Assembly (NCBI GenBank): GCA_913052655.1
Contig: CAJXFN010000001.1
Coordinates: 1-32,944 of the forward strand
Length of the DNA stretch: 32,944 nt
From: an uncultured Flavobacteriales bacterium
GTDB taxonomy: Bacteria > Bacteroidota > Bacteroidia > Flavobacteriales > BACL11
Direction: 5' to 3'
The notes beneath the pieces are model-generated. The model saw only the letters and a list, made by a program, of their open reading frames with translations. It ran no database searches and was not told the DNA's origin. Shown here one piece after another: positions 1 through 30,110 of this stretch. Numbering within the stretch: the first letter of the stretch is position 1; each line of letters starts with the position of its first letter. A program made the translations under genes and the position numbers.

Positions 1-3000
1 ACTTACATGTTAATGGTGAGAATACTCCGAATCCTCCAATATTAGAGAACGAAGATCCTGGTACATTCTCTCTGTACTGTAATCTCACGAATGAATACGT
101 AGATACAGTATCCCAACAGAATGTTGTCTTTGTAGTATTGTCTGGAGTTGCAGTAACATTTATTACATTATCACACTCAGGTGCTGTTGTAAATGTTCCT
201 CCACCATGCCAGTTAACTGTAGATGCGTTACAGTACCAAATCTTAAAGTCATACTCATACTGAGTATTTGGTGTTAAGTTTAGTACTAACTTAGAAGTAT
301 TTGTAGTATTACATCCACTTCCTACTGGTACACCCATTGTCTTTGTTGAATAAGAATTAGTTCCTACTTCTCTATATCTAAATCTTACTTGGTCAACTTG
401 ACAAGTTGATGAATTCATATCATCCCAGTTAAATACAGCTCTATCGTGGATAATATTATCTACAAAGATACCTGTAATGTTTCCACAAGTAGCAGGGTAT
501 TGACATGAACCATCATCTACAGTAGCGTTAGGATCATAGTTTGTAGCTGTAGGATCTGTACAACCTGAAACTGGAGTCACACATGTTCCACAAGTTCCAT
601 AAGTATTTGTAACATCTCCTGAACCTACCGCCCATAATCTATTAGCATATGACCAGTAGTCTGTAATTGGTGTACAAGACCAGTCTCCAGATGCTGTATT
701 AGCAGCAACTAAGTCTTCCTGAACACCATCTACAACTAACAAGTATTCCATATCAGCTGTCGGTGCTGGATTAAATGTAAATGTCCAAGTACCGTTACCG
801 TTATCTACCGCTACTGGTCCTCCATTAGGATCCCAGTTCCACCATGGACCTGTCATCCTTACAGAACTAGCACTAGTACATACTGTTGTTGTTACATTTA
901 ACACACTAGCGTACACGCAAGAACCATCATCTAGGTTTGCATTTGCGTCATAGTTAGTAGCTGTTGGATCTGTACATCCTAAGAATATACAAGAACCATC
1001 ATCTGTATTAGCCGCAGGGTAGTAGTTAGCAGCAGTTGGGTCTGTACAACCATATAAGAATGGCTCACAAGTTCCATCATCTACGTTAGCATTAGGATCG
1101 TAGTTGAATGCAGTTGAGTCAGTACATCCGTAAACTGGCAATACACAAGAACCATCATCAGTATTTGCTAATGGGTCATAGTTTAATGCAGTTGAGTCAG
1201 TACATCCGTAAATTGCACAACCAGCTCCAATTTGAACAGTAGTATAAGAACCAGCAGTAGCTCCTGATAATGAACCAAAATCAAAAGAGATTTCAGAATC
1301 ATACGAACCACCACCAACAGTTACATCATAACAACCGTCAGCTAAACATAAAGTATCAGAGAATGAAGAACCAGAAGTCATACCTCCTGAAGCAACAACT
1401 AAACCGTTTGCATCAGTAATAGTATAAGTACCTCCGTTCCATCCATCACCCCATGAGTCATATCCAGTAAATACAACAACATTATCAGTACAAGGATACG
1501 TACATGAACCATCATCTACTGTAGCAGCAGGATCATAGTTAGTAGCTGTTGAATCTGTACAACCTGTTATAGCACAAGAAGCACCTATTCCCCAATCATC
1601 TGAACCAGCCGCTCCAGATGGTAATCCACCTGAACCAATTGTTCCAGAAGCATCAGAAATAGTATATGTACCTCCGTTCCATCCATCACCCCATGAGTCA
1701 TACATGTTGAATGTATAACAGTCATCAGGTAAACAAGCTGATACAGAATAAGTACTGAATGAACCGTATCCAGAACCTGAAGCTACAACAGATCCACTTG
1801 AATTAGTTAAGTCCCAAGAAATTTCAGAACCATAGCTAGAAGTGTTAATTGTAATTGTAACATCATTTTCTAAACAAGGGTACACACATGAACCGTCATC
1901 AATAGTAGCTGTAGGGTCATAGTTAGTAGCTGTTGAATCAGTACAACCAGAAACAGCACAAGTTGCTCCACCAATAGAAATATTAGTGTATGTTCCAACA
2001 CCTGCTCCAACTAATGAACCAAAGTCAAATGAAACTTCAGAAGTCCAAGAACCACCACCTACAGTAATGTCATAACATCCAGTTGGTAAACATAAAGTAT
2101 CTGAATCATAAGATCCAGAAAGTAAACCACCTGTTGCAACAACAGCACCATTAGCATCAGTAATTGAGTAAGTACTTCCATTCCATCCGTCTCCATATGA
2201 ATCATACATATTTAGAGCTACTTCATTGTCCGCACATGGATAGATACATGATCCATCATCAGTGTTTGCACAATCATCATAGTTAGATGCAGCTGTATCA
2301 GTACATCCTAAAGTAGTTCCAACTGTAAAGTCAAATGAAGCTGTTGAACCTGTAGGTAATGTACCAACTGTATAAGCAGTTCCTAAAGCATCTGCTAAAG
2401 TTACAGAACCTAATTGTCCAGTAGACCATCCGTCTCCATATGAGTCATAAACATTTAATACATAACATCCATCAGTTAAACATAAAGAATCTGATAAAGT
2501 GTTGTATCCTAATGCATAAGGACCTCCTGAAGCAACAACAGCTCCTGAAGCATCAGTTACATCCCAAGTCATTTCAGACCCGTAGTAATCTGTAACTACA
2601 GTAACATAAACAGAATTATCAGTACATGAGTATAAACATGAACCATCATCTGTGTTAGCGTTAGCATCATAGTTTACAGCTAAAGGATCAGTACATCCAT
2701 AGATAGGACACGCTACAGTTGTTCCAATTTGAACATCAGTAGGACCAAATGGTGCACCACCACTAGCTAATAAAGTTCCTGTTGCATTATCATATAATTC
2801 CCAAGAAACTTCAGATTGCCATGAACCTCCATTACAAGAAACAGAGTAACATCCATCAGAAATACAGAAATATGCAGTATCCTGTGAACCAGCACCTAAA
2901 GTAGCAGTCTCGGTTCCAATTGTGAATACATTACCATTCCATCCATCACCGAATGAATCATACATTACAAGCATTAAGTCATTTGCAGTACAACCAGCAC

Positions 3001-6000
3001 ATGAACCATCATCAGCAGTAGCTGCTGGATTATAGTTTGCATATGCAGGATCTGTACATCCATAAGTAACAGACGTAATATTGATATTATCAACCCATAC
3101 AAAGTCTCCATACGCACCACTACTATAATTTGAATTATATTTACAAGCAGTTTGTATTTCTACGTAAACATTTGATTGACCTCCATAAGCAGATAAATCA
3201 TAAGTAAGAGTTGTTAAAGACTCCTCACCGTGCCATGACACACCATTAACATCAGAAAGAACTGTTCCGTTTACTAATACTCTCATTGTTGAATAAGCAG
3301 TACCTGATAATCCCGGCGCAGTATTTGTGAATCCAGATTGTGTCATATAGTCTAAAGTAAGTGCAACAGATCCAGAAACTCCAGATAAGTCCATACACTT
3401 AGCAGCAGACTGTACGTGTGAAGTATTTGCAAAGGCAGCAGCTTCAGTTGTATAAGCTGTCCATCCTGCAAATCCATCTCCTCCAGTCATTTGAATAGAA
3501 TTAGTTCCATTCATACTAGTAGAGATAGTAGTATAAGATCCTGGATATGTAGAAGTTGCTGATGCTTGAGTAGTATCAGATACTATCCAACCATTAGAAC
3601 CAAATGAATATCCAGAAGTTGTATCCCATGTTGCACTTGACCAGTCTTCAGTAAATGAAGGAACATCACAAATAGTTGTTGAACTAAATGTACAAGAACC
3701 ATCATCAATTGAAGCGTTTGGATCATAGTTTGTTGCAAATGGATGAGTACAACCATCATATAAACAAGAACCATCATCTAAAGAAGCAGCAGGGTTATAG
3801 TTAACCGCAGCTGTATCAGTACATCCTGTAATAGCATCAACGAAACTAGCTAAATCAATACACATATCTGAAGTGTAAGAAGTACCAGTATTTGAAGTTA
3901 TCTTAACATTTACAGATTGTCCAGCGTAAGCCGAAAGATCTACTAGTAAGTTAAACCACTCAGGACCTTGATCTCCAGAAACAGTTGTTTCTAAGTTCCA
4001 AGTAGCTCCATTGTCGTTAGAAACTAATATGTCTAGTGATCCCATAGAAGCTCCATACATATTAACCCAAGCACTAAAGAATGGATTAGTAAGTGCTGAA
4101 ATATCCACACAATGAGATGTCATAGATACATCGTTTCCATAGTTACCAGAAGTTTCAACATACATATAGTATGCACCATCGTATGCGTAACCAGTTCCTA
4201 GATAGTTTGTTGAATAGTTTGGTCCAGTATTAACAGAACCAGTACCTGAAGCATCCCAAATCCAGTCTCCATAAATTGAACTTCCACCAGAGTTATCATC
4301 CGTATTGTTAGTCCAATCAGATGGGTTTAATCCAATTTGAGCTATTCCATCCTCAAAAGATGTAGAGTATGTTAAAGCGTCAAAACAAGGATATAAACAA
4401 GAACCATCATCAAATGTAGCTGTAGAATCATAGTTCTGTGCTGTTGGATCAGTACAACCCATGTTATACATACAAGAACCATCATCAGTGTTTGCTAATG
4501 AATCGTAATTGTTTGCAATAGGATCAGTACAACCAAAGATTTGTGGGAAACATAATGTTCCAGTGTAAGGAGCTCCACCAGATAGTACAATTGTACCATT
4601 GATATCAACTACTTCCCATGAAACTTCAGCTTGCCATGAACCTCCACCAACATCAACTGTATAACAGTCATCTGCTAAACAAAGTGATGCAGTTCCAGCT
4701 GAACCACCAAGTAAAGTTTGTGAAACTAACATCGCACCCGCTGAATTAGTCATAGTAAGAGTATTACCATTCCATCCATCACCGAATGAATCATACATGT
4801 TCAATGTTAAGAAATTATCAGTACAGTATGCACATGATCCATCATCAATTGTTGCTGAAGCATCGTAATTGATAGCAGTTGAATCAGTACATCCTGAAAT
4901 ACATACAGCTCCTCCAATTGAGATTCCGTATGATCCAGAAGATGCAGCGTTTGGTGCAGCATATCCTAGAGTATCTCCATTTGCATCAGTTGCTAATATA
5001 TATCCTTGAGTTCCGTTGAAGTCAGTCCAACCATCTCCCCAAGAATCATACCAGTTAATGATGTAACATCCAGTGTTAGCACAAATTTGGTAGTTGTAAG
5101 TTGTAGATGAAGCAGCGTATCCACCAACAGGAACTCCAGCCATTGTATCACCAGTAGCCACGTTTATTAATTCCCATCCAGCTTCTGCACCGTATAAATC
5201 AGTAAATACTTCAATATTTATTTCATCATCAAAACCATAGTATGCACAGCTATAAGTACAAGAGCTATCATCCAAGTTTGCAGTTGGATCAAAGTTTGTA
5301 GCTAAAGAGTCAGTACAACCAGGGTATGTACAAGAACCATCATCAGTGTTAGCTAATGGATCAAAGTTAGATGCGTTAGGATCAGTACAACCGTTAACTA
5401 CATTTGCAGCAACGAATCCACTCCACGTTGAAGTACATCCATTACAATCAGTTATAGTTACAGCAATTGGACCCATACCTAAATTTGATACATCCTGAGT
5501 TGTAGCTCCATTTGACCAAGCGTAAGTATAAGAACCTCCACTAGTATGTAATAATACAGAAGGATCATATGATGTAGTACCACCTAAATACGCAGCTCCA
5601 CCAAATGCAGGTCCATTAGCACATATTTCACCAGTACTTACTGATAAATTACCATCAGTAGCATGTGTATTTACAAATGGTGCTGAAGCACCTAAAGTAA
5701 AGTAATGTGTTACAGGAGTATGAATAGCTATACCAACAACATCTCCAGGTAGTACAGCGATTGCTGACATTAAAGGAATATAAATTGGATCACCACTAAT
5801 AGTAGCAGGATTTGGTATAGTTGTATTCAATGTCCATCCATTTGAACTTGTAGTATTTCCAGAAGCAGAACCACTTCTTGTCCAAACTTCTATATTACCA
5901 GCTCCAACATATACTCCTTTTTGAGTAATTCCAGTGATACCTACAGCACTTGAAGATGCAGAAATATCAAAGTAATTCGTTGTTCCAGTAGCAGCAGCGG

Positions 6001-8422
6001 AATAAATATATTCCGTAGTTCCATCCCATGAATCTAGTGTATCAGCAGCTCCATTGAAGCATGGTGATCCACCGTTTACAGATAAAGAAACGGCACCATC
6101 AGTATTTATTGGAGAAGTTGCATCTACAACAACAGCAGTAGCTGTAATTGCAGTAGGTTCACCAATTGTAACATTAACTGAAGCAGAACATCCATTTACA
6201 GAATCAGATACTGTACAAGTGTAAGTACCTGCAGTTAATCCAGAAACTGAACTTGAAGTTCCAACAACAGTTCCAGCAGCATCAGTCCATGAGTATACAT
6301 CAGATCCATTTGAATTTACTACAGTTGCAGAAGCCATTCCATCAGCACCTCCATTACAAGAAGCGTCAAATGCATAATCCTCAGCAATACCATAATAAGT
6401 ACATGGAGTTACATTAAATACATTAATATCATCAAGAACTACGTAATTTCCAAATCCTCCAGTAGAGAAACCAGGTCCATACTTACATGAAGCCTCAAAC
6501 TTAATATATACCTGAGACTGACCTGCAAATGCAGATAAATCATAAGTATATGTGTTAACACCAGGATTTACAGTTGTATTGTTAAATACACCAGCTCCAG
6601 AGACAACTTCAGTTAACTGAGTTCCATTAGCAAATACTCTAAACCAAGTATAAGCTGAACCATAGTATGATTGTAAGTCAGCATCAAACGTCATATTAAC
6701 GATTGAAGAAGAATTACTCATATCAATACATACTTGAGAACTTGATACGTAATTAGCGTAGTTTAGTCCAAAGGCATCAGCTTCAGTTAATGGAGTAGCA
6801 CCCCAAGAAACATCACCTCCAGTATGAACTAAAGATACAGTATCAGAAATAACATTTGAAGTACTTAATACAACATCAGACTGTGTACCAGTCAATGTAG
6901 TCCACCCGTTCCCAGCTAGGTTTGCAGCTTCAAAATTATCAGAGAAATCTAATGCATTACACACTGGATATATACATAATGTACTATCATTTACATTACA
7001 TGTTGCACAGTAGTTAGTTGCATTAGGATCCATACAACCAGTGTATAGACATGATCCGTCATCAATAGACGCAGCAGCATTATAATTGTCTGCAAATGGA
7101 TCAGTACATCCAGTTGTTGGTGCTTCCATAAACTGTAGTAAATCTACAGCCATATCAGAAGTATAAGAAGTTCCTGTTAGAGCTTGAACTCTTACTGAAA
7201 CTTGTCCTGTATAACCAGATAAAGAAACAACTGCTTGATTCCAAACATCTCCCTGGTTTCCTGAAAGTGTCCATTCATTTGTCCACGTAGCACCACCATC
7301 TGTAGAAACATCTACATTAACAGTACCCATAGTTGCTCCATACATATGATAAGCAAAAACAAATGCTGGATTAGTCCAAGTACTTAAATCAACACAATCA
7401 ACAGTTATGTCAGCAGTAGAGTTACTACCAGCACCAGAAGTTTCTGTGTAGATATAATATAATCCATCAAACGCAGCAGATGGACCAGTTGAACCTGAAG
7501 TTGTTGTTCCAGTGTTTATAGTCCAATCTACAGTGTTTGTTGATGCATTTGCCCAAGCTCCTAATGAACTAGCTTCAAAACTCTCAGTAGTGTCACTAGC
7601 AATACAAGGGTAAGTACAAGAACCATCATCAACCGTAGCTAATGGATCATAATTTGACGCATTTACGTCAGTACATCCGAATACTGCAGGTAAACAAAAA
7701 GCAGGAGAAGCTCCAGTGTAAGGAGAACCTCCGGAAGCTAATATGTTTCCAGTAGCATCGTCAGTTAGTGTCCAAGATACTTCACTAGCAAAAGATCCAC
7801 CACCACAAGTGATTGAATAACAATCATCTGGAAGTGTACCATAATCATATCCTAGTGAACCTGTTGCTAAAGTTGAAGTCATTACAGCGATACCAGCAGA
7901 ATTTGTTAATACAAAAGTATTTCCATTCCACCCATCACCCCATGAGTCAACCATTGTTAATGTTACAGAAGTAGATGAAGCATATGTACAACTTCCGTCA
8001 TCAACAATTGCATTAGCGTCGTAGTTAGTAGCGTTAGGATCAGTACATCCTAAAGGCCCCCAACAAACAACATCTGTACCATAAGAGCCACCTGTTAGAC
8101 CTCCAGTAGCATAGATCTGCCCTGAAGCAGAATCTGTAATACTGTAAGTTCCTCCATTCCAACCATCACCATATGAATCATACATATTCATATTGTAACA
8201 ACCGTCAGGCGCTGTAATAGTCGTAACAGATGTAGCATAGTTACCGTAACCACTTCCAGAGGCTAAAATTGCTCCAGAACCATCAGTAAGATCCCAAGAA
8301 ACTTCAGACCCCCAATTAGCGGTGTTTACAGTGATGTTTACAGTAGTAGCAAAAGCGGTGGACACCGTAAAAGCTAATGCTGTAACTACAGAAAACATCA
8401 ATTTACTAAATTTGTTTTTCAT
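1..8422 (-). CDS. Giant secreted multidomain cell-surface protein, 3'-truncated by the window edge (>2807 aa); probable T9SS cargo/adhesin
   Basis: Absent from the ORF track, presumably because no stop lies inside the window. Manual translation of the minus frame with codons 8420-8422, 8417-8419 ... 2-4. The ATG at 8420-8422 is the first ATG after an in-frame TAA 18 nt upstream. N-terminus MKNKFSKLMFSVVTALAFTVSTAFA|TTVNITV is a signal peptide (8348-8422). No TAA/TAG/TGA in 2807 codons. Approximate domain map: 9 DS[YWF]GDGW modules (motifs near 8160, 7935, 5035, 4775, 2950, 2435, 2195, 1695, 1455); 21 GCTDxxAxNYDxxAxxDDGSC linkers; canonical MAM domains at 7130-7585 and 3842-4363; divergent jelly-roll/MAM-like domains at 6405-6960 and 3068-3650; SprB-like repeats at 5400-6360; an unknown domain at 560-880 (VRMTGPWWNWDPNGGP...); an FN3-like tail at 2-480 ending ...NIGGFGVFSPLTCK, which aligns with ...NIGGSGVFSPLLCKQKNGL of the 1593-aa neighbour. 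That alignment implies roughly 125 more residues, including a CTD, beyond the edge. Confidence 0.9.
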   Translation of the reverse strand, partial: MKNKFSKLMFSVVTALAFTVSTAFATTVNITVNTANWGSEVSWDLTDGSGAILASGSGYGNYATSVTTITAPDGCYNMNMYDSYGDGWNGGTYSITDSASGQIYATGGLTGGSYGTDVVCWGPLGCTDPNATNYDANAIVDDGSCTYASSTSVTLTMVDSWGDGWNGNTFVLTNSAGIAVMTSTLATGSLGYDYGTLPDDCYSITCGGGSFASEVSWTLTDDATGNILASGGSPYTGASPAFCLPAVFGCTDVNASNYDPLATVDDGSCTYPCIASDTTESFEASSLGAWANASTNTVDWTINTGTTTSGSTGPSAAFDGLYYIYTETSGAGSNSTADITVDCVDLSTWTNPAFVFAYHMYGATMGTVNVDVSTDGGATWTNEWTLSGNQGDVWNQAVVSLSGYTGQVSVRVQALTGTSYTSDMAVDLLQFMEAPTTGCTDPFADNYNAAASIDDGSCLYTGCMDPNATNYCATCNVNDSTLCIYPVCNALDFSDNFEAANLAGNGWTTLTGTQSDVVLSTSNVISDTVSLVHTGGDVSWGATPLTEADAFGLNYANYVSSSQVCIDMSNSSSIVNMTFDADLQSYYGSAYTWFRVFANGTQLTEVVSGAGVFNNTTVNPGVNTYTYDLSAFAGQSQVYIKFEASCKYGPGFSTGGFGNYVVLDDINVFNVTPCTYYGIAEDYAFDASCNGGADGMASATVVNSNGSDVYSWTDAAGTVVGTSSSVSGLTAGTYTCTVSDSVNGCSASVNVTIGEPTAITATAVVVDATSPINTDGAVSLSVNGGSPCFNGAADTLDSWDGTTEYIYSAAATGTTNYFDISASSSAVGITGITQKGVYVGAGNIEVWTRSGSASGNTTSSNGWTLNTTIPNPATISGDPIYIPLMSAIAVLPGDVVGIAIHTPVTHYFTLGASAPFVNTHATDGNLSVSTGEICANGPAFGGAAYLGGTTSYDPSVLLHTSGGSYTYAWSNGATTQDVSNLGMGPIAVTITDCNGCTSTWSGFVAANVVNGCTDPNASNFDPLANTDDGSCTYPGCTDSLATNFDPTANLDDSSCTYSCAYYGFDDEINIEVFTDLYGAEAGWELINVATGDTMAGVPVGGYAASSTTYNYQICANTGCYIINWYDSWGDGWTDFNGTQGYILATDANGDTLGYAAPNAASSGSYGISIGGAVCISGCTDSTAINYDASATIDDGSCAYCTDNFLTLNMYDSFGDGWNGNTLTMTNSAGAMLVSQTLLGGSAGTASLCLADDCYTVDVGGGSWQAEVSWEVVDINGTIVLSGGAPYTGTLCFPQIFGCTDPIANNYDSLANTDDGSCMYNMGCTDPTAQNYDSTATFDDGSCLYPCFDALTYSTSFEDGIAQIGLNPSDWTNNTDDNSGGSSIYGDWIWDASGTGSVNTGPNYSTNYLGTGYAYDGAYYMYVETSGNYGNDVSMTSHCVDISALTNPFFSAWVNMYGASMGSLDILVSNDNGATWNLETTVSGDQGPEWFNLLVDLSAYAGQSVNVKITSNTGTSYTSDMCIDLASFVDAITGCTDTAAVNYNPAASLDDGSCLYDGCTHPFATNYDPNASIDDGSCTFSSTTICDVPSFTEDWSSATWDTTSGYSFGSNGWIVSDTTQASATSTYPGSYTTISTSMNGTNSIQMTGGDGFAGWTAYTTEAAAFANTSHVQSAAKCMDLSGVSGSVALTLDYMTQSGFTNTAPGLSGTAYSTMRVLVNGTVLSDVNGVSWHGEESLTTLTYDLSAYGGQSNVYVEIQTACKYNSNYSSGAYGDFVWVDNINITSVTYGCTDPAYANYNPAATADDGSCAGCTANDLMLVMYDSFGDGWNGNVFTIGTETATLGAGSQDTAYFCISDGCYSVSCNGGSWQSEVSWELYDNATGTLLASGGAPFGPTDVQIGTTVACPIYGCTDPLAVNYDANANTDDGSCLYSCTDNSVYVTVVTDYYGSEMTWDVTDASGAVVASGGPYALGYNTLSDSLCLTDGCYVLNVYDSYGDGWSTGQLGSVTLADALGTAYTVGTLPTGSTASFDFTVGTTLGCTDTAASNYDDCANTDDGSCIYPCADNEVALNMYDSYGDGWNGSTYSITDANGAVVATGGLLSGSYDSDTLCLPTGCYDITVGGGSWTSEVSFDFGSLVGAGVGTYTNISIGGATCAVSGCTDSTATNYDPTATIDDGSCVYPCLENDVTITINTSSYGSEISWDLTNSSGSVVASGSGYGSFSTYSVSACLPDDCYTFNMYDSWGDGWNGGTYTISDASGTIGSGGLPSGAAGSDDWGIGASCAITGCTDSTATNYDPAATVDDGSCTYPCTDNVVVFTGYDSWGDGWNGGTYTITDANGLVVASGGMTSGSSFSDTLCLADGCYDVTVGGGSYDSEISFDFGSLSGATAGSYTTVQIGAGCAIYGCTDSTALNYDPLANTDDGSCVLPVYGCTDSTAFNYDPNANVDDGTCEPFLYGCTDPTAANYYPAANTDDGSCIFLGCTDPTATNYDANANLDDGSCVYASVLNVTTTVCTSASSVRMTGPWWNWDPNGGPVAVDNGNGTWTFTFNPAPTADMEYLLVVDGVQEDLVAANTASGDWSCTPITDYWSYANRLWAVGSGDVTNTYGTCGTCVTPVSGCTDPTATNYDPNATVDDGSCQYPATCGNITGIFVDNIIHDRAVFNWDDMNSSTCQVDQVRFRYREVGTNSYSTKTMGVPVGSGCNTTNTSKLVLNLTPNTQYEYDFKIWYCNASTVNWHGGGTFTTAPECDNVINVTATPDNTTKTTFCWDTVSTYSFVRLQYRENVPGSSFSNIGGFGVFSPLTCK
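911..1207 (-). repeat. Four back-to-back copies of the 23-25 aa Cys-bracketed GCTD...DDGSC linker (coding)
   Basis: Translation GCTDSTALNYDPLANTDDGSCVLPVY GCTDSTAFNYDPNANVDDGTCEPFLY GCTDPTAANYYPAANTDDGSCIFL GCTDPTATNYDANANLDDGSCVY. The roughly 75-nt periodicity is visible in the DNA. Confidence 0.9.
3842..4363 (-). other. MAM domain (second canonical copy) inside the giant ORF
   Basis: Translation TSFEDGIAQIGLNPSDWTNN...NTGPNYS...GAYYMYVETSGNYG...FFSAWVNMYGASMGSLDILVSNDNGATWNLETTVSGDQGPEWFNLLVDLS...GTSYTSDMCIDLASF. It has the same landmarks as the first copy. Confidence 0.75.
7130..7585 (-). other. MAM domain (first canonical copy) inside the giant ORF
   Basis: Translation ESFEASSLGAWANASTNTVDWTINTG..TGPSAAFDGLYYIYTETSGAG...AFVFAYHMYGATMGTVNVDVSTDGGATWTNEWTLSGNQGDVWNQAVVSL...GTSYTSDMAVDLLQF. 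It matches MAM consensus landmarks: FE..W, TGP, Y.Y.E.S, F.YHMYG..MGT..V, G.QG..W, SD.A.D. Confidence 0.75.
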
Positions 8423-8769: not shown

Positions 8770-11700
8770 TTATTGAACAATAATCTTTTCATGATATTGA
8801 TCCAATTCGGATTTAAATACTACTGTATAAATTCCTTTTGAATAATTTGATAGATCAACGTTATATACAAACTGATCGTGATGCAAATCTATTTCTAAAA
8901 CTAATTCTCCTAGCAAATTATATATATTTAGCGAACTGTTTTCACTTAATTGATCATCAATTGATATTGTAAATTTACCTCTAGATGGATTAGGAAACAA
9001 GTCAAATATTTTATTGATATTATTATTTGATTCCCTAATGTTGGAAGGTGTTGAGAAAAACACAGGCCCATCCCAAGCTGGTGAGCGATACGCTCCTCCC
9101 GTAGAATTACACCACGTTCTGTAAATTAATCGATAAGAAGTATTTGGAACTAAACCGTTCTTTTGCTTACATAACAAAGGAGAAAACACTCCAGAACCAC
9201 CAATATTATAATAAGTAGAACCTACAGAATCAATCCTATACTTAAAACGAACAAAAGAATAGCTATATACAGAATCCCAACAAACCTCAACTTTAGTAGA
9301 TGAAAGTGAATTTACAGACACATTAATCATATTAACACAAGAATCTTTAGTGGAGAATGTATCTAAAGCATGCCAATTAACAACACCTGAGTTACAGTAC
9401 CATATCTTAAATTCATATTCGTAAAGAGTAGATGGAGTAAGATTTAAAACTGTTTTACTAATATTAGATGTATTACATCCACTACCAACTGGAACTCCCA
9501 TAGTTTTAGTTTGCCATGAGGAACTTCCTAAAGATCTATATCGAATTCTTATTTGATCTACTTGACAATTAGAATTATTCATATTGTTCCAATTAAAGGT
9601 TGCTCGATCATGTATAATATTACTTACATAGATCCCTGTCACTTCTCCACAGTTTATTGGATACTGACAAGATCCATCATCAATACAAGCAGAAGGATTA
9701 TAGTTTAAAGCAGTAGAATCTATACATCCTACCACCCCAAAACAACTCCCGTCATCCATGTTAGCTAGGGGATTGTAGTTACATGAAACTGGATCTGTAC
9801 ATCCGTAAATGTAATACAAACAAGAACTATCATCCGAATTTGCAGCTGCATAGTAATTTAACGCTAATGAATCTGTACATCCATAAATATAAGGCTGACA
9901 ACTACCATCATCTGTGTTAGCAAGTGAATCAAAATTATAAGCTGTTGAATCAGTACAACCTAACAGAGGATAAATACAGCTTCCATCATCTATCAATACT
10001 GTTGGATCATAATTTATTGCGTTAGAATCTGTACATCCATAAATTGAATAGATACAACTTCCATCATCTACATTCGCTCCTAAATAATAATTAAGAGCTA
10101 GAGGATCTGTACATCCGTACATAATAGAAACACAACTTAAATCTGGACAAGTCGCACTACTATCATAATTAAATGCAGTGCTATCCATACACCCATAAAC
10201 ACAATAAAGGCAACTTCCATCGTCTGTATTTGCATTTGGATCAAAATTTATTGCAACAGAATCTGTACAGCCATAAATGTTTGGTAAGATCATAGAAATA
10301 TTAATATCATCCAAATCAATTCTCCACATATTAGCAGGACTAATTGCATGCCAACCTATGTAATAAATTCCATCAGAAGGAACACTAAAACTAACAAATG
10401 TAGAATCGTAAGAAATATTAATAATATTATTCATCTGTAATAGAACATTTGTAAGAGAAGAAGCTTGTTGACTGGTTCCAATACAAACATTCATTTGCTC
10501 AGGATAGGCTGCAGAAGCAACTCTATATTTAAATCCTAAAGTATATGTTTTATTAGATTCTAACTCAAAACATTGAGAAATCAACCAATCATCTGCTGAA
10601 GTTGTTCCGTTAAAATTATAATTATAAAACACACCATAAGACTGATTAAAACCTGTGTATTGATTAATATTCCATGTATAAGAATCATTATTAGCATCTT
10701 CAATTTTCCATCCACTAAAATCATGAAAAGGTTCAAATCCCATTTCGTAATCTGAACTATAAAAATCGTGTAAATAGTTTGTAAATACTGATGAGGCAGT
10801 ATCGTTACCAATATTTAAATCAAGTGAATGGGATGTGAATGCATTTAAGGTGTACACACCACCGCTACTGACATTAACAGTATTAGAAAAAGTATATATA
10901 ATACTATCTCCAGGAGGAACGTTAGTAAACACACTATCAGTATAGACCTGACCATTCCAATCAAAAGATACTACAAAATTGGAAGCATCAATAACATTAA
11001 AATTAGTAATCATGACAACTACTTGTTCAGCAGAATCCAAAACACATGAATTAGATGGAGATATTATTGAGGATACTCCAACATCTATACTAAACTCTTC
11101 AATTTCAATAGTATCTATGGCTGTACAACCATTTACATCTATCACCTCAACAATATAAAATCCTGATTCTAATCCAAAAACATCCTGAATATTTGATGTA
11201 AATAAATTAGGACCTGACCAATTATATGAAAGTGGAAATACTCCACCATTAATAGTAATGTCTATACTACCATCAAAAGCATTTGCCATACTTTCTGGAA
11301 CTACTACAGAACTAATACTCAAAGGAGAAGCGTAATCTACAACTTGAAGATTAGTTAAAGTGTCCTTACACAAATTAGAATCTGTAACTATTACAGAATA
11401 AGTACCTACTGATACATTAGTCAAATCTTGAGAATAAGAACCATCACTCCAGTCAAAACTATAAGGACCTACACCACCATTAATATTTAAATTAATATTA
11501 CCATTAGAAGAAACACAATTTGCAGGAACAATATTAGCATTAGCAGACATAGAACAATTTATACTCCAACTAATATCTAATAAATAATCCGCAGAATCAG
11601 AACAAGGTAAGCATGAATATGCAGAAGGAGTTACAAGCAACCAATATGTTCCTGGAGGAATAGTCTGTTGTAAACTAAAGCTATCACACTGTGTGATAAA

Positions 11701-13551
11701 ATCTGAATCTAATATGTTTTGTGTGCCACATCCAGAATTTCCATCTAACAAATAAATATAATAAGGCACCTCTGAAATTGAATGTAAAGTTAAATCACTA
11801 CTATCCGATAAAATAATTTCGTACCAATCTGTATCTCTATAATTGTTCTCCGCAAAAAATGTTCCGTGAACGACAGTATTATTTGACAATGGAGTATAAT
11901 TAGACACAGGTGGATCAATAGTATAATTTACATACGCATTACCATCAGGACCTCCACTAGTAGTTATAGAATAAGTACCTGCAACATAAGGAGTTGGTAT
12001 TACATAAGACCCTATAAAGTCATCCGCACCTAACAAACTAAATGTTCCGTCATCATCATCATACACTCCGAAATCATAAGTATAGGTTAAACCTGTTGTA
12101 GAAGGAGTTGTAAAAATTGAATTAGACTTTAATTCTAAAGGATTTGTAATACTTGGGTTAGCAAACATAGAATAACTTAACGGTTGAGCGGGTGTCTGAC
12201 CATATGAATTAGGACACCATGTATCTAAGTAATAATCTGTGTAGTGATAGAATACATTATTTTCTTGCATGTAGATATAAAAATCAGGAGAAAAATCTGG
12301 ACCTATATTTACATATCCATTAATCGGCCATCCTACATAAGTTATACTCGCTCCAAAAGACCAAGGATCCTCAATTCCAGTTATAGTAAAATTGGAAAGT
12401 TTAAAATTATCATCACAACCGTTATTTACATCAGAACCACATGACTCTCCTTCAGAAATTGCATTACTGGGAATACTAATCTGACACATAGGATTACAAC
12501 TTCCTATTCCACAATGTTCCTGTGCAAAAGTAAAACTACTACCATTTGCTACATTTACTCCATTATAATCAACATTATAAGATCCATTTCCCCAGCCACA
12601 ACAAATTCCATCTCCATAGGAATCTAATATTGTAAAAGTATAACAGTTTGTATCTGGAACACATAAAGACCAAGTTAAAATAGAATTAGCATCAGAACTT
12701 GTTAAAGGTACATTTGTCCATCCTCCCCCATATTGATCCATTAAAAACCAAGAGGTTTCTGTTGGATAATCATCTGTATTAATTGTTATAATAATTTCAG
12801 TCTCTCCAATAGCACAATTAGAAGATGAACAGGAACCAATTGATGAAGTAGTTTCTGAGCTTAGAAATGAACCTCCAGAAGCTATTTGCGAACCTCCGTA
12901 ATTAACAAAATAAGATCCACTTCCCCAACCACAACAAATTCCATCTCCATAGGTGTCTAATATTGTAAAAGTATAACAATTTGTATCTGGAACACAGATA
13001 CTCCAAGTATATGTAGTATTAGATTGAGTCAAATCTCCAGGACTTATAAACCAACCTCCTCCATTTTGATCTACTAATTGCCATGATGTTTCCAAAGGAT
13101 AATTATCTGTAGTTATACTTATAAAGAACTCTTGTTCGTTTGCAGCACAACTAGATGGAGGCAACTGACAACCACCTATATTGTAGGTGGTTTCAGAACT
13201 TTGAAATGAACCTCCAGTAGCTACAGTAATTCCATCTACTAATACAGAATAAGATCCATTACCATAACCACAACAAATTCCATCACCCCAAGTATCACTT
13301 ATTGTGAATACATAACAGTTAGTATCTGGAACACAGTAAGTATAAGTATATGTAGTATTCGATTGTGTTAAACCTCCAGGATTAATAAACCAACCTCCTC
13401 CATTTTGATCTGTTAGACTCCAAGAAGTTTCTGATGGATAATTATCTGTAGTAATAACTACAGATATCTCTACTTCATTTGAAGCACATTGAGAAAGTGC
13501 TTGAAAAGAAATAAAAAACAATGAAATAAAGGCAATAATCTTATTCCTCAT
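8770..13551 (-). CDS. 1593-aa secreted multidomain surface protein with T9SS type-A C-terminal sorting domain
   Basis: ORF track. Signal peptide MRNKIIAFISLFFISFQALSQ|C. Domain order: three GDGICCG modules; a PPC-like region (DTDWYEIILSDSSDLTLHS...YIYLLDG); two SprB/HYR-like repeats (NINGGVGPYSFDWSDGS..., TINGGVFPLSYNWSGPN...); a choice-of-anchor-J/cleaved-adhesin-like domain (GFEPFHDFSGWKIEDANNDSYTWN...ADDWLISQCFEL); 8 DDGSC linkers; an FN3-like tail; a CTD ending in ...IIVQ. Confidence 0.95.
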   Translation of the reverse strand: MRNKIIAFISLFFISFQALSQCASNEVEISVVITTDNYPSETSWSLTDQNGGGWFINPGGLTQSNTTYTYTYCVPDTNCYVFTISDTWGDGICCGYGNGSYSVLVDGITVATGGSFQSSETTYNIGGCQLPPSSCAANEQEFFISITTDNYPLETSWQLVDQNGGGWFISPGDLTQSNTTYTWSICVPDTNCYTFTILDTYGDGICCGWGSGSYFVNYGGSQIASGGSFLSSETTSSIGSCSSSNCAIGETEIIITINTDDYPTETSWFLMDQYGGGWTNVPLTSSDANSILTWSLCVPDTNCYTFTILDSYGDGICCGWGNGSYNVDYNGVNVANGSSFTFAQEHCGIGSCNPMCQISIPSNAISEGESCGSDVNNGCDDNFKLSNFTITGIEDPWSFGASITYVGWPINGYVNIGPDFSPDFYIYMQENNVFYHYTDYYLDTWCPNSYGQTPAQPLSYSMFANPSITNPLELKSNSIFTTPSTTGLTYTYDFGVYDDDDGTFSLLGADDFIGSYVIPTPYVAGTYSITTSGGPDGNAYVNYTIDPPVSNYTPLSNNTVVHGTFFAENNYRDTDWYEIILSDSSDLTLHSISEVPYYIYLLDGNSGCGTQNILDSDFITQCDSFSLQQTIPPGTYWLLVTPSAYSCLPCSDSADYLLDISWSINCSMSANANIVPANCVSSNGNINLNINGGVGPYSFDWSDGSYSQDLTNVSVGTYSVIVTDSNLCKDTLTNLQVVDYASPLSISSVVVPESMANAFDGSIDITINGGVFPLSYNWSGPNLFTSNIQDVFGLESGFYIVEVIDVNGCTAIDTIEIEEFSIDVGVSSIISPSNSCVLDSAEQVVVMITNFNVIDASNFVVSFDWNGQVYTDSVFTNVPPGDSIIYTFSNTVNVSSGGVYTLNAFTSHSLDLNIGNDTASSVFTNYLHDFYSSDYEMGFEPFHDFSGWKIEDANNDSYTWNINQYTGFNQSYGVFYNYNFNGTTSADDWLISQCFELESNKTYTLGFKYRVASAAYPEQMNVCIGTSQQASSLTNVLLQMNNIINISYDSTFVSFSVPSDGIYYIGWHAISPANMWRIDLDDINISMILPNIYGCTDSVAINFDPNANTDDGSCLYCVYGCMDSTAFNYDSSATCPDLSCVSIMYGCTDPLALNYYLGANVDDGSCIYSIYGCTDSNAINYDPTVLIDDGSCIYPLLGCTDSTAYNFDSLANTDDGSCQPYIYGCTDSLALNYYAAANSDDSSCLYYIYGCTDPVSCNYNPLANMDDGSCFGVVGCIDSTALNYNPSACIDDGSCQYPINCGEVTGIYVSNIIHDRATFNWNNMNNSNCQVDQIRIRYRSLGSSSWQTKTMGVPVGSGCNTSNISKTVLNLTPSTLYEYEFKIWYCNSGVVNWHALDTFSTKDSCVNMINVSVNSLSSTKVEVCWDSVYSYSFVRFKYRIDSVGSTYYNIGGSGVFSPLLCKQKNGLVPNTSYRLIYRTWCNSTGGAYRSPAWDGPVFFSTPSNIRESNNNINKIFDLFPNPSRGKFTISIDDQLSENSSLNIYNLLGELVLEIDLHHDQFVYNVDLSNYSKGIYTVVFKSELDQYHEKIIVQ
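8773..9012 (-). other. T9SS (Por) type-A C-terminal sorting domain of the 1593-aa protein
   Basis: IFDLFPNPSRGKFTISIDD...LNIYNLLGELVLEIDL...VDLSNYSKGIYTVVFKSE...KIIVQ. It matches the usual pattern: PNP..g.f.i, i.i.n..G..v, l..l..G.Y.v. Confidence 0.85.
9661..10272 (-). repeat. Eight tandem GCTD...DDGSC linker repeats (coding)
   Basis: GCTDSVAINFDPNANTDDGSCLY, GCMDSTAFNYDSSATCPDLSCVS, GCTDPLALNYYLGANVDDGSCIY, GCTDSNAINYDPTVLIDDGSCIY, GCTDSTAYNFDSLANTDDGSCQP, GCTDSLALNYYAAANSDDSSCLY, GCTDPVSCNYNPLANMDDGSCFG, GCIDSTALNYNPSACIDDGSCQY. Confidence 0.9.
12487..13488 (-). repeat. Three tandem ~111-aa modules with the motif D[ST][YW]GDGICCG[YW]G.GSY (coding)
   Basis: These are aa 22-134, 135-245 and 246-355 of the 1593-aa protein. 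Each begins CA..E.E and contains TTD.YP.ETSW.L.DQ.GGGW, C(V)PDTNCY.FTI.D.[YW]GDGICCG. Copies 2 and 3 share long near-identical nucleotide runs, for example around 12600-12670 versus 12935-13005. Confidence 0.9.
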
Positions 13552-13956: not shown

Positions 13957-16900
13957 ATGAAAAAATCTTTACTTTCTTTAATAATTATATTTAGTGGAAT
14001 TTTAAGCTTTGCTCAACATCCTACAAACCTTATTTCTTCCAATATCACATCTAATTCAGCTGACTTAGACTGGGATGACGCTGTGTGTTCAGGTAATGTT
14101 AATTTTAAGTATAGAGTAACTGGATCTGGATCTAACTGGATTCAAACAAATAATGTAACGTCTATATACTCGTTGAGCGGTCTAAGTCCAAATACTTCAT
14201 ATGATTGGACAGTAAAATGTGTAGGGAATAGTGGATGGGCTAATAACGCTACTTTTATTACATCAAATAATTGTAATTTGACATCTTCTGTATCTGTTAC
14301 AGACGCTTCATGTAATAATACTTTGGATGGATCTGCTACATTATCAGTAAGTAATGGATTTTCACCTTACATATTTAATTGGGACAATGGAACAACTACA
14401 CAAAATTTAAACGGAGTAAGTTCAGGAACCTATGTTGTTCAAATAAGCGATAACTCGGGATGTACAACATCAGACACAGCTATAATTGGATCTATTGGAA
14501 CCCAGTCAATAAATCAACAACTAACACAATTCTCACCTAATCCCATTACAGCTTACCACCAATGGTCTTATGACACTTTGAGAATAACCAATACTGGATG
14601 TGATGTTAGAATTCGTCCAGAATTTACAATTAACTGTTCTAATGGACCTATCCAACAAGGAGATATTGTATTAAAATGGCAAAACCCATTAGGATTTAAT
14701 CAAAATATAAATTACAATATTGACGCTAACGGAAACGCATATGGGTTTTGGAGCTTCACTTCTGGTGATTCATCTGGAACTGACGTTACTTTCGGTCAAA
14801 TTCAAGATGTAGTAATTCAAGTTAAGTTTGTTAATCCTGCTCAATTTGGTACTTACAGCGCTACTTGGGAGACATATAAAGTAGATAATTTGGGCAACAA
14901 ACTTGGTTTATTAGCTGGACCAAACACGGTTTCACTAACTTTAATTGATTGTTCTTCTTTAACAATTGATGGTTTTAGCTCGACAAATCCAAATTGTGTT
15001 GGCGGTACTGATGGAACAATAAATATAAACAACATTTCTAATGGAAGTGGAAACTTTTCTTTTAATTGGTCTAATGGAAGCTCACAAGCCAATATCAGTG
15101 GTCTGAGCGCAGGGACCTATACTTTAACAGTTACAGATAATAATACTGGCTGTATAGCTGTAGATTCTGTTACTATTACAGATCCCTCTCCATTATCTGG
15201 AACCCTAACAGGTACAAATATTACATGTAATGGACTATCGGATGGTACTTTATCAGCGATTGCAAGTGGAGGGTCTTCTGTATATAAATATACATGGAAT
15301 CCATCTATAGGACAAAATGCAAACATAAACAATCTTTCTGCTGGCACTTATGATTTAACAATAATTGATTTGGTTTGCAACAATAATATATCCGGTTTGT
15401 CATTTACAATAACAGAGCCAGATTTATTAACATCCACTAGTTTTAACTCAAACAATACTTCATGTGACACTTCAATTTGTAATGGTACATTTGGAATAAT
15501 ACTATCTGGAGGAACAACACCTTATACTTACACTTGGACCAATGGAGACACAGTTAATTCTCAAAGCAATTTATGTGCTGGTAGTTTTTCTATAACTGCA
15601 ACTGACGCAAATTCATGTAATATATTTACAGAAAATGTTATAGTATATGATAGTTCATTTACTCCATCTACATTATTAACATCCACAAATATTAGTTGTT
15701 TTGGATTGAATGATGGTAATGCAGAAGCAATAATTTCTAGTGGAAGTAATACTTCTGGAGGAAACATATCTACACTTGCTTATTGTTCATCTAGCCCAGG
15801 ATCGAATTTATACAATACAATTGACGTGGTGAATTTAAATGGAGATGGAGACGCTATTAATAATAATACATCTGGTAGCTGCGATACATACGAAGATTAT
15901 TCATCACAATACACGACCCTAAGTCCAGGAACTACATATACTCTAAGTATTGACTTGGGGACATGTAATTCTGGAAATTTTTTCTATCCTGATAGTACGG
16001 GCGTATTTATTGACTGGAACATCGATGGTGATTTCGATGACATTAATGAGAAAATCGGTGTTTTCTATAGTGACATACCTACCACTCATAATATCAATAT
16101 AACTGTTCCAAATATTGCATACGGTCCTACAAGAATGAGAATTGTATCTCAGATTCAAAGTACTAATCCATCATTTCCTAGTAGCCCTGTAAATCCTTGC
16201 TTAGTAGGGACTTATGGTCAAAATGGAACATATATACAACCATGGTTTGGAACAACTGAAGATTATTCTTTAGTAATTAATGGTACAATTCCCGCTACCT
16301 ATCTTTGGAACACAGGAGATACAACATCTTCTATTTCTAATCTTATAGCAGGAACATACTATTGCGAAGTAACCGATACGAATAACTGTACATCAATAGA
16401 TACTGTAACAATTGTTGAACCTTCATTAATATCTAGTTCAGAAAATATAACAAATGTAAGTTGTAATGGTCTTTTAGATGGAAGCGCTATACTCACAATC
16501 TCTGGAGGAACACCTGGATACACAGCAGATTGGGGGACTAATAATCCTAACGCATTATCGGCTGGAACTTACAACTATTCTATTACAGACACAAATGGTT
16601 GTAACTATAATGATTCTATAACTATTACAGAACCTAATGAACTTAGTATAAATTCTATAACAACAAATGTTCTTTGCAATGGAGACACTACAGGATCTAT
16701 TGATATTACAATTAGTGGAGGTGTAAGTTCTTACTCTTTCTTGTGGAGTAACGGAATTACAACTGAAGATTTATCAAATGCTCTAGCAGGAACATATTAT
16801 CTTCAAGTAACAGACGCAAACTCTTGTATATTATTAGACACATTTGTTATTACAGAGCCATCTTTTATCACTGTTTTTTCTACAACCACCGACGCTACTT

Positions 16901-20550: not shown

Positions 20551-20601
20551 GTTTAAAATAAATACTTAATTTGGCAATATTAAAATTGAAATAAAAAAAT
20601 T

Positions 20602-30106: not shown

Positions 30107-30110
30107 CTTA

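What the first reader, a model, noticed from the sequence alone, without database searches (positions are those of the whole stretch)
1380..8347. Nine copies of an unrecognised DS[YWF]GDGW module in two alternating, apparently permuted subtypes
Type I modules place [ST]E[VIM]SW.[LV].[DN]..G...A[ST]G before ..C....GCY.[FLM]N[MV]YDS[YW]GDGW. An example is VNTANWGSEVSWDLTDGSGAILASG...APDGCYNMNMYDSYGDGWNGGTYSITD. Type II modules start with M.DS[FWY]GDGWNG[NS]...[IL]T[ND] and end ..C[LF]..[DG].CY.[IV]..GGGS[WFY]..E[VI]S[WF]. An example is MVDSWGDGWNGNTFVLTN...PDDCYSITCGGGSFASEVSWTLTDD. Reading 5'->3' the order is I,II | I,II | II | I,II | I,II. A single GCTD...DDGSC linker separates almost every module; two linkers follow module 4 and one linker precedes module 5. 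I cannot assign these modules to a named family. The invariant Asp/Gly/Trp and paired Cys suggest a compact disulfide- or metal-stabilised binding fold.
Basis: seen in the sequence. Interest (0 to 1): 0.65.

Follow-up and report, generated by a model that had tools for sequence, protein, structure and literature searches.

The report
Uncurated two-half beta-sandwich surface module
A giant secreted protein of an uncultured marine flavobacterium carries nine copies of a compact, disulfide-stapled domain that no curated database or solved structure covers. The domain is built from two related halves that occur in both orders, and it belongs to a very large family shared with Vibrio nucleases, microalgal proteases and giant viruses.

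Summary
The minus-strand gene 8422..2 runs off the window; the full protein is 2900 aa on Tara Oceans contigs. It has nine DS[YWF]GDGW modules in the order I,II | I,II | II | I,II | I,II, separated by GCTD..DDGSC linkers (9 motif matches seen, 8e-5 expected).

Each module is two homologous ~50-aa half-units, each apparently closed by its own disulfide:
- an "E" half carrying SE[VI]SW
- a "D" half carrying DSxGDGW

Type I is E-D and type II is D-E. A register shift cannot explain this, because linkers frame the modules and I-linker-II reads E-D|D-E. AlphaFold2 folds both types confidently (pLDDT 93-95) as 4+4-strand beta domains.

Pfam (2025), NCBIfam (2026) and PDB sequence searches give no significant match, and PDB fold matches are weak. 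The family is nevertheless huge, with 13,662 50%-identity clusters. A GDG-I/L-CC variant is fused to endonuclease I, M43, subtilisin, caspase and dockerin, and occurs in diatoms, haptophytes and giant viruses. Type II was seen only in the GDGW branch, mostly in marine Flavobacteriales.

The function is inferred, not shown. I favour a Ca2+- or ligand-binding knob on a surface adhesin. This is a new, uncurated domain family of a familiar kind and is moderately interesting.

The parts
2..8422 (-). Gene for the giant secreted protein. It is partial in the window (2807 aa here). The full length is 2900 aa on contig locus L081:15130-23832.
8345..8422 (-). Sec-type signal peptide MKNKFSKLMFSVVTALAFTVSTAFA|T (read from the sequence, not predicted by a tool)
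8051..8344 (-). Module 1, type I (E half then D half). It lacks the first Cys pair.
7679..7987 (-). Module 2, type II (D half then E half), sub-variant IIa. It lacks the first Cys pair.
4895..5257 (-). Module 3, type I, the most divergent copy (AEAGW; GDGWTDFNGTQGY)
4535..4831 (-). Module 4, type II (IIa)
2699..2998 (-). Module 5, type II (IIa), standing alone after the second MAM/X block
2309..2635 (-). Module 6, type I
1949..2245 (-). Module 7, type II, sub-variant IIb (SEVSFDFGSL..., with a 5-residue deletion after the E loop)
1565..1885 (-). Module 8, type I. AlphaFold2 model m25bfbc3b0ff0: pLDDT 94.6, 8 strands.
1208..1501 (-). Module 9, type II (IIb). AlphaFold2 model m0d2779489182: pLDDT 92.8, 8 strands.
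7988..8047 (-). Linker CTD..DDGSC between modules 1 and 2
7616..7675 (-). Linker after module 2
6974..7108 (-). One linker (7049-7108) plus one degenerate linker (6974-7036) after MAM 1
5258..5389 (-). Two linkers before module 3 (5330-5389 and 5258-5317)
4832..4891 (-). Linker between modules 3 and 4
4397..4531 (-). Two linkers after module 4 (4472-4531 and 4397-4456)
3692..3823 (-). Two linkers after MAM 2 (3764-3823 and 3692-3751)
2999..3058 (-). Linker before module 5
2636..2695 (-). Linker between modules 5 and 6
2246..2305 (-). Linker between modules 6 and 7
1886..1945 (-). Linker between modules 7 and 8
1502..1561 (-). Linker between modules 8 and 9
917..1204 (-). Four consecutive linkers after module 9
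503..562 (-). Last linker in the window, before the fn3-like C-terminal region
7124..7582 (-). MAM domain 1 (Pfam PF00629). It is part of the duplicated I-II-MAM-X super-repeat.
3827..4390 (-). MAM domain 2 (approximate limits)
12520..13491 (-). Three tandem type-I modules of the GDG-I-CC variant, with no linkers between them. They sit at the N-terminus of the neighbouring T9SS cargo gene 8770-13551(-).

Best explanation
SHOWN.
- The nine modules are copies of an uncurated extracellular domain of about 100 aa.
- Each copy is an internal duplication of a ~50-aa unit predicted to have four strands.
- One unit carries the loop DSxGDGW(NG) (the D half). The other carries the loop [GT]xx[YWF]xSE[VI]SW (the E half).
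- Both orders exist as discrete domains framed by linkers: E-D is type I and D-E is type II.
- Both orders are predicted with high confidence to fold as a 4+4-strand beta domain.

INFERRED.
- Each half is closed by its own disulfide (from Cys covariation).
- All eight strands are joined by short loops. Both chain ends should therefore lie at one pole. The two conserved acidic/aromatic loops, and the conserved Gly loops, should lie at the opposite pole.
- The modules would then hang off the disulfide-stapled 20-aa linkers like knobs rather than stacking end to end.
- The conserved pole (invariant D, D, E plus aromatics) most likely holds Ca2+ and/or contacts a common ligand such as a glycan.
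- In this protein (signal peptide, MAM, SprB-like and fn3-like domains, 8.5% Asp, under 1% Lys+Arg, next to two T9SS cargo genes) the array would act as a multivalent surface adhesin. Its host is an uncultured marine flavobacterium.
- In other proteins, single copies would target secreted nucleases and proteases to their substrates.
For: Motif and order:
- nine motif matches against 8e-5 expected
- order and linker frame

Half-unit relations:
- hhalign gives D-D 6.6e-25, E-E 3.3e-15, first-first 3.8e-8 and second-second 3.7e-7
- half-length cross-type alignments
- the half swap improves cross-type HMM scores in 8 of 9 modules

Fold and disulfides:
- AlphaFold2 gives pLDDT 92.8 / pTM 0.83 and pLDDT 94.6 / pTM 0.85, each with 8 strands in a 4+4 pattern
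- conserved residues lie in the strand1-2 and strand5-6 loops
- C1 and C2 co-occur, phi = 0.87

Family size and the two orders:
- 13,662 clusters match the profile
- in 147 full-length proteins, discrete blocks are ED(W) 209, DE(W) 125, ED(CC) 41 and DE(CC) 0

Partner domains are extracellular enzymes and adhesion domains:
- endonuclease I, M43, S8, trypsin, dockerin, MAM and Por_Secre_tail
- caspase, LRR, Laminin_G and M8

Context and composition:
- the neighbours are T9SS cargo with SprB repeats
- the protein is acidic
Against: - No binding or metal data exist.
- I could not read model coordinates. The position of the loops, the closeness of the termini and the equivalence of the type I and type II folds come from secondary-structure strings and loop lengths only.
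- The conserved loop is identical in proteins with very different partners and hosts. That fits a structural role (fold or Ca2+ site) at least as well as a ligand site.
- The DSxGDG loop is not a canonical DxDxDG/EF-hand or Asp-box motif when read against the sequence.
- The target's own C-terminus gives no Pfam T9SS CTD hit, so its surface attachment is inferred.
Confidence: 0.5

Rival explanations
1. The modules are purely structural extender or spacer beads. They lengthen and stiffen a surface fibre, and the invariant acidic loops only bind structural Ca2+ or define the fold. They have no ligand of their own. The MAM, X, SprB-like and fn3-like domains do the binding.
For: - The array is a tandem of many copies with rigid-looking disulfide linkers.
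- The loop is invariant whatever the partner domain or host.
- The protein is very acidic, which suits Ca2+-rigidified marine adhesins (the comparison with such adhesins is from my own knowledge).
Against: - An even number of strands joined by short loops puts both termini at the same pole. That is a poor geometry for end-to-end extenders.
- Single copies are appended to small secreted enzymes such as Vibrio endonuclease I, where an extender has no obvious use.
Confidence: 0.3
2. The module is a divergent member of an already characterised family, such as a CBM, an Ig-like/PKD domain, a PPC or P-domain, or a beta-gamma-crystallin. The tools here were not sensitive enough to detect it.
For: Weak Foldseek matches to small beta-sandwiches:
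- MmpS5, E = 2.6e-4, TM 0.46-0.54
- alpha-toxin C-terminal domain
- the CBM entry 2xhh

The distribution, as an add-on to secreted hydrolases, resembles CBM and PPC domains.
Against: - No Pfam or NCBIfam hit even at E <= 10 for 52 modules.
- No PDB sequence hit with a profile.
- The type II model has no PDB fold match better than E = 0.07, and all TM scores are below 0.55.
- High TM scores (0.72-0.79) occur only to unannotated regions of predicted viral proteins.
Confidence: 0.12
3. There is no real permutation. Types I and II are the same ordinary tandem repeat of ~50-aa units read in two registers.
For: - The two halves are homologous to each other.
- In linker-less arrays (EDED...) the register would be ambiguous. 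A few such arrays exist.
Against: - Linkers and the Cys frame fix the register.
- I-linker-II reads E-D|D-E, a mirrored order that no register shift can give.
- Isolated DE blocks flanked by linkers or other domains occur 125 times in 147 proteins.
- Both orders fold as single confident domains.
Confidence: 0.04

Closest known systems
CBM36 / CBM60 calcium-dependent carbohydrate-binding modules (PDB 2xhh, entry titled 'Circular permutation provides an evolutionary link between two families of calcium-dependent carbohydrate binding module')
   Same: - Both are small beta-sandwich add-on modules of secreted proteins.
- A natural permutation links two subtypes.
- A conserved acidic loop is a candidate Ca2+/ligand site.
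- 2xhh appears among the Foldseek hits of both models.
   Different: - The matches are weak: E = 0.011 and 0.14, TM 0.35-0.39, identity 10-16%.
- There is no sequence relation.
- Glycan and Ca2+ binding are untested here.
- Here the permutation swaps two homologous halves inside a constant frame.
Beta-gamma-crystallin domains (two Greek-key motifs; both motif orders are known in microbes and vertebrates). This comparison is from my own knowledge and was not tested with a tool beyond Foldseek.
   Same: - One domain is built from two homologous ~40-50-aa four-strand units.
- Both unit orders occur in nature.
- These domains are often Ca2+-binding and extracellular.
   Different: - The [YFW]xxxx[YF]xG signature plus Ser is not present in the sequence.
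- No crystallin is among the top 50 Foldseek hits of either model.
- The disulfide frame is absent from crystallins.
MmpS5 soluble domain (PDB 8em5, 9mvz), the best solved-structure match
   Same: It is a small, all-beta sandwich of similar size. Foldseek gives E = 2.6e-4 to 4.8e-4 for the type I model.
   Different: - TM is only 0.46-0.54 and identity 7-11%.
- The type II model matches it only at E = 0.14-0.18.
- Its biology is unrelated (a mycobacterial efflux accessory protein).
- It lacks the motifs and the Cys frame.
PPC (pre-peptidase C-terminal) and P-domains of secreted proteases; PKD and Big domains of T9SS cargo
   Same: They have the same kind of distribution. All are promiscuous beta modules appended to secreted subtilisins, metalloproteases, nucleases and adhesins of marine bacteria.
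   Different: - None of these Pfam families is matched significantly: PKD reaches only E = 0.054 in 1 of 52 modules, the Big domains 0.0075-0.19, and PPC/P-domain are not hit at all.
- When PPC or PKD_6 is present in relatives, it is a separate region.
Unannotated regions of predicted viral proteins in BFVD: Fadolivirus 'caspase' A0A7D3UU47, Virus NIOZ-UU157 A0A7S9XDT1, and uncultured-virus proteins A0A218MM41 and A0A218ML01
   Same: The predicted fold is the same: TM 0.72-0.79, rmsd 1.8-4.2 A, 19-30% identity. These are very likely true family members.
   Different: They are predictions, not solved structures. Their names come from other domains in the same proteins, and nothing is known about the module's role there.

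Membership tests
Any Pfam-A family (copy with models up to 2025) | An hmmscan match of the module at or near the family's gathering score | tested here: not met
   - The whole protein matches only MAM, outside the modules.
- Of 52 type-I modules scanned singly at E <= 10, no family is matched by more than 3 members, and the best E is 0.004.
Any NCBIfam model (release 20.0) | An hmmscan match covering the module | tested here: not met
   - The target has 0 families at E <= 1.
- The cassette, the CC-variant modules, Vibrio endonuclease P0218 and diatom subtilisin P0161 give hits only on other domains, or weak hits below cut-off (best on a module region: TIGR04226, 20.2 bits against a cut-off of 30).
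Any protein with a solved structure (PDB) | Sequence similarity of the module to a PDB chain | tested here: not met
   - phmmer with the whole protein finds only MAM-containing chains.
- The profile of 52 modules has a best E of 0.13, which is spurious (AMA1).
Any solved fold (PDB, Foldseek) | A structural match with TM >= 0.5 on both normalisations and a significant E-value | tested here: inconclusive
   - Type II: best E = 0.074, TM <= 0.47.
- Type I: MmpS5 at E = 2.6e-4 to 4.8e-4, TM 0.46-0.54.
- This shows a generic small beta-sandwich likeness only.
CBM36/CBM60-type Ca-dependent CBM | The shared beta-sandwich fold | tested here: not met
   2xhh matches at TM 0.35-0.39, E = 0.011 and 0.14.
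CBM36/CBM60-type Ca-dependent CBM | Ca2+-mediated glycan binding | not testable with these tools
   This needs ITC, glycan arrays or a structure.
Beta-gamma-crystallin | The Greek-key signature [YFW]xxxx[YF]xG with a conserved Ser in each half, and the crystallin fold | tested here: not met
   - The signature is absent from the consensus of both alignments.
- No crystallin is among the top 50 Foldseek hits.
T9SS type A cargo (for the target protein as a whole) | A C-terminal Por_Secre_tail domain (PF18962 / TIGR04183) | tested here: not met
   - The full C-terminus was recovered from L081. It gives no Por_Secre_tail hit even at E <= 10.
- Both neighbouring giant proteins do have it.
- The 40-aa tail ...VDVLGREV...LFYIYDDGTVEKKIIIE looks like the last strands of a CTD, but that is only a reading of the sequence.
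The family defined here (two-half DSxGDG / ExSW module) | - A D loop D-[ST]-aromatic-G-D-G and an E loop E-x-[ST]-[WF], each between strands 1 and 2 of a four-strand half
- A C..C frame per half
- A total of about 100 aa and 8 strands | tested here: met
   All nine window modules and the three neighbour modules meet these features. Supporting results: conservation and secondary structure, Cys covariation, models.

The most novel reading that the evidence does not exclude
The module founds a cross-kingdom extracellular domain superfamily found in bacteria, diatoms, haptophytes and giant viruses. It has more than 13,000 sequence clusters and no curated model or solved relative. Evolution has fixed both orders of two homologous half-domains, often alternating within one protein. 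The invariant Asp/Asp/Glu-aromatic pole is a new kind of Ca2+-dependent ligand (glycan) binding site. Marine microbes would use it for adhesion and for targeting secreted nucleases and proteases.
Probability: 0.3. Interest if true: 0.65.

Novelty: new variant of a known kind. Interest (0 to 1): 0.5.

Why it matters
- Scale. A domain present in more than 13,000 50%-identity protein clusters is invisible to current annotation. Its carriers include Vibrio endonucleases, microalgal subtilisins, giant-virus caspases and the giant surface proteins of abundant uncultured ocean Flavobacteriales. These proteins are named only after their other domains or called hypothetical.
- Annotation. Defining the domain would improve annotation of marine metagenomes.
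- Experiments. It would give a concrete target for binding and structure work on how particle-attached Flavobacteriales and secreted marine enzymes recognise their substrates.
- Protein evolution. It offers a natural, abundant pair of half-order variants (E-D and D-E) for studying permutation and pseudo-symmetry in protein folds.

Tried and rejected
- Literature. Full-text searches for the motif strings DSYGDGW, GDGWNG, YGDGW, GDGICC and YPSETSW found nothing relevant. Searches for MAM/T9SS marine flavobacterial proteins and for crystallin motif order also found nothing usable.
The 5-sequence alignment A3 worked.
- Known calcium or repeat motifs. Read against the sequence, the DSxGDG loop does not fit DxDxDG/EF-hand spacing or the Asp-box (SxDxGxTW). 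I did not file it under either.
- Trp versus Cys-Cys. I considered that the Trp of GDGW and the vicinal Cys-Cys of the GDG-I-CC variant are interchangeable hydrophobic platforms. The alignment places W opposite I/L/M and NG opposite CC, so I dropped the idea.
- Viral origin. IMG/VR hits are mostly T9SS cargo genes on contigs called viral, so I did not treat the module as a phage receptor-binding domain.
- Model superposition. Model coordinates are not exposed, so I could not superpose type I on type II, measure loop-loop distances or read disulfide geometry.
- Linker. The Pfam PsaN hit on linker-only proteins does not extend to the window's linkers, and I did not pursue it.
Full report
WHAT IS THERE.

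The finding lies in one long open frame on the minus strand. It starts at the ATG at 8422 and runs off the left end of the window. The same contig occurs in Tara Oceans and other marine metagenome assemblies. There the gene is complete and encodes 2900 aa (locus L081:15130-23832).

The protein starts with a Sec-type signal peptide. It is rich in Thr, Gly, Ser, Asp and Cys and almost lacks Lys and Arg. The only Pfam families above their score cut-offs are two MAM domains; the C-terminal region gives a weak fn3 match below cut-off. NCBIfam finds nothing.

CHECK OF THE OBSERVATION.

DS[YWF]GDGW occurs nine times. The expectation from composition is 8e-5. The partner motif [SA]E[VIMA][STG][WF] occurs once per module, before the D motif in four modules and after it in five (the stricter reader-style pattern finds seven).

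Twenty CTD..DDGSC linkers and one degenerate copy frame the modules. The modules span 1208-8344, not 1380-8347.

The first two I-II pairs belong to a ~700-aa super-repeat, I-linker-II-linker-MAM-linkers-X, that is duplicated at 40% identity over 741 columns.

The '+3' copies are three type-I modules of a variant (TDNYPxETSW ... GDGICCGxGxGSY). They open the neighbouring gene 8770-13551(-), which ends in a T9SS sorting domain.

ANATOMY OF A MODULE.

Each module is two ~50-aa half-units. Profile-profile comparison gave these results:

| Comparison | E-value | Columns |
|---|---|---|
| D half, type I vs type II | 6.6e-25 | 47 |
| E half, type I vs type II | 3.3e-15 | 30 |
| First half, type II vs type I (D vs E) | 3.8e-8 | 51 |
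| Second half, type II vs type I (E vs D) | 3.7e-7 | 47 |

So D and E are diverged copies of one unit. The position-specific frame is the same in both types. That frame is the N-terminal C-x-D-N, the junction C-L-x-D-G-C-Y and the C-terminal Cys.

Three further results support the swap:
- Pairwise alignments between types cover only half a module, at up to 71% identity. Within a type they cover the full length.
- Swapping the halves in silico raises the best single-domain score against the other type's HMM in 8 of 9 modules. Examples are 35.8 to 60.1 bits for module 4 and 47.7 to 77.1 bits for module 1.
- The first two Cys are present or absent together (phi = 0.87). The last two are nearly always present. 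This suggests one disulfide per half.

A register shift of a simple repeat cannot explain the two types. The linkers fix the register, and I-linker-II reads E-D|D-E.

PREDICTED STRUCTURE.

I used alignments of 56 type II and 52 type I modules. AlphaFold2 gave pLDDT 92.8 / pTM 0.83 for module 9 and pLDDT 94.6 / pTM 0.85 for module 8. Each model has eight strands in a 4+4 pattern. The D loop or the E loop (the latter with a short helical turn) lies between strands 1-2 and 5-6.

All connections are short, 1-9 residues. By inference both termini lie at one pole, and the conserved D and E loops and Gly loops lie at the other. I could not read coordinates, so this geometry and the equivalence of the two folds remain inferences.

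COMPARISON WITH WHAT IS KNOWN.

- No Pfam family is matched by any of 52 modules, even at E <= 10.
- No NCBIfam model covers the module in the target, in the neighbour, in a Vibrio endonuclease or in a diatom subtilisin.
- No PDB chain matches by sequence, even with a profile.
- Foldseek against the PDB finds nothing better than E = 0.07 (TM <= 0.47) for type II.
- For type I it finds only the MmpS5 soluble domain (E = 2.6e-4, TM 0.46-0.54), the alpha-toxin C-terminal domain and a CBM. This is a generic small-sandwich likeness.
- Against predicted viral structures the type I model matches unannotated regions at TM 0.72-0.79. These regions are in a Fadolivirus 'caspase', a Virus NIOZ-UU157 protein and two uncultured-virus proteins. 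They are very likely family members.

DISTRIBUTION.

A profile of the type I modules finds 13,662 cluster representatives at E <= 1e-3 among 1.84 billion. Of these, 4,468 score at or below 1e-10.

The GDGW form is mostly in uncultured marine Flavobacteriales. It also occurs in Marinimicrobia, Chitinophagales, Saprospiraceae, rumen Bacteroidales and a few others.

The GDG-I/L-CC form is broader:
- endonuclease I of Vibrio neptunius and Halioxenophilus
- M43 metalloproteases, subtilisins, trypsins and dockerin proteins
- a Ditylum (diatom) subtilisin, a Pleurochrysis (haptophyte) protein and other eukaryotic catalogue entries

IMG/VR contigs add caspase, LRR+Hint (a giant-virus MAG), Laminin_G and M8+dockerin partners.

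I annotated 147 full-length proteins with half-unit HMMs. The discrete two-half blocks were:

| Block | Count |
|---|---|
| E-D, GDGW form | 209 |
| D-E, GDGW form | 125 |
| E-D, CC form | 41 |
| D-E, CC form | 0 |

The motif spacing in 120 CC-form relatives agrees. Type II is therefore common, usually sits beside type I in the same protein (40 of 49 proteins), and was seen only in the GDGW branch.

HOW IT MOST LIKELY WORKS.

Shown: this is an extracellular, Cys-framed, confidently folding two-half beta module that exists in both half orders.

Inferred: it acts as a knob displayed on short disulfide-stapled linkers. Its conserved acidic/aromatic pole holds Ca2+ and/or contacts a ligand. Here that would give a multivalent adhesin. 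Supporting context is the presence of MAM, SprB-like and fn3-like domains, and two neighbouring T9SS cargo genes with SprB repeats. On secreted enzymes a single copy would act as a targeting module.

The main rival is a purely structural, Ca2+-stiffened spacer. The invariance of the loops across very different proteins supports that rival. The same-pole termini, and the single copies on small enzymes, argue against it.

The target's own tail gives no Por_Secre_tail hit, so its route to the surface is inferred from context.

VERDICT.

The refinement is that the 'permutation' is a swap of two homologous half-units inside a constant frame. The module is a large family that is uncurated in every library tested here. 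Its kind, a beta-sandwich add-on of secreted proteins, is familiar. It is useful and moderately surprising. Its function is open.

Noticed in passing
window 503-8047 (-) and 9700-10290 (-): The 20-aa linker GCTDxxAxNYDxxAxxDDGSC occurs 20 times (plus one degenerate copy) in the target and 7 times in the neighbour. Elsewhere whole proteins consist of tandem copies (P0108, P0111). In those proteins Pfam PsaN (PF05479) matches above its cut-off over profile positions 73-104. The window's own linkers give no PsaN hit. The linker may be an uncurated mini-domain in its own right.
   Followed up: partly
window 8770-13551 (-): The neighbouring 1593-aa gene has three linker-less GDG-I-CC modules, an SprB repeat, seven linkers, an fn3-like region and a Por_Secre_tail domain. 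Its residues 1086-1462 are 48% identical to the C-terminal part of the target.
   Followed up: partly
window 4895-8344 vs 2999-5257 (-): There is a ~700-aa super-repeat (type I - linker - type II - linker - MAM - linkers - unassigned ~200-aa 'X' domain). It is duplicated within the target at 40% identity over 741 columns. The X domains (about 6368-6973 and 3059-3688) have no Pfam match.
   Followed up: partly
L081:23473-23832 (the target's C-terminus, outside the window): The target ends ...KLLKMVDVLGREVNPHKLINKTSLFYIYDDGTVEKKIIIE. It gives no Por_Secre_tail hit, unlike both neighbouring giant proteins. This may be a shortened T9SS signal.
   Followed up: partly
window 13957-20550 (+): A third giant protein (2197 aa) has fn3, GEVED, 16 SprB repeats and a Por_Secre_tail domain. 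It is transcribed divergently from the two module-bearing genes.
   Followed up: no
window 22203-32936 (-): This is a polysaccharide-synthesis cluster. It encodes glycosyltransferases, Polysacc_synt_2, a DegT aminotransferase, Bac_transf and a sulfotransferase (27586-28515). The sulfotransferase hints at a sulfated surface glycan next to the adhesin genes.
   Followed up: no
window 1-8000 vs 20000-32944: G+C falls from 0.37-0.39 in the target gene to 0.25-0.30 in the polysaccharide cluster. The Gly/Ala/Thr/Asp-rich composition of the giant protein may explain this. I did not test for foreign origin.
   Followed up: no
window 1208-1501 and 1949-2245 vs 2699-2998, 4535-4831 and 7679-7987 (-): Type II comes in two sub-variants. 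IIa has SEVSW-x-L-x-D..G...SGG.PY (modules 2, 4, 5). IIb has SE[VI]SFDFGSL.GA..G.Y, with a 5-residue deletion (modules 7, 9). Both recur in relatives.
   Followed up: partly
L103:2722-3912 and BFVD A0A7D3UU47: The module is fused to a caspase (Peptidase_C14) domain, both on an IMG/VR contig and in the Fadolivirus 'caspase'. On a giant-virus MAG it is fused to LRR and Hint domains (L093).
   Followed up: partly
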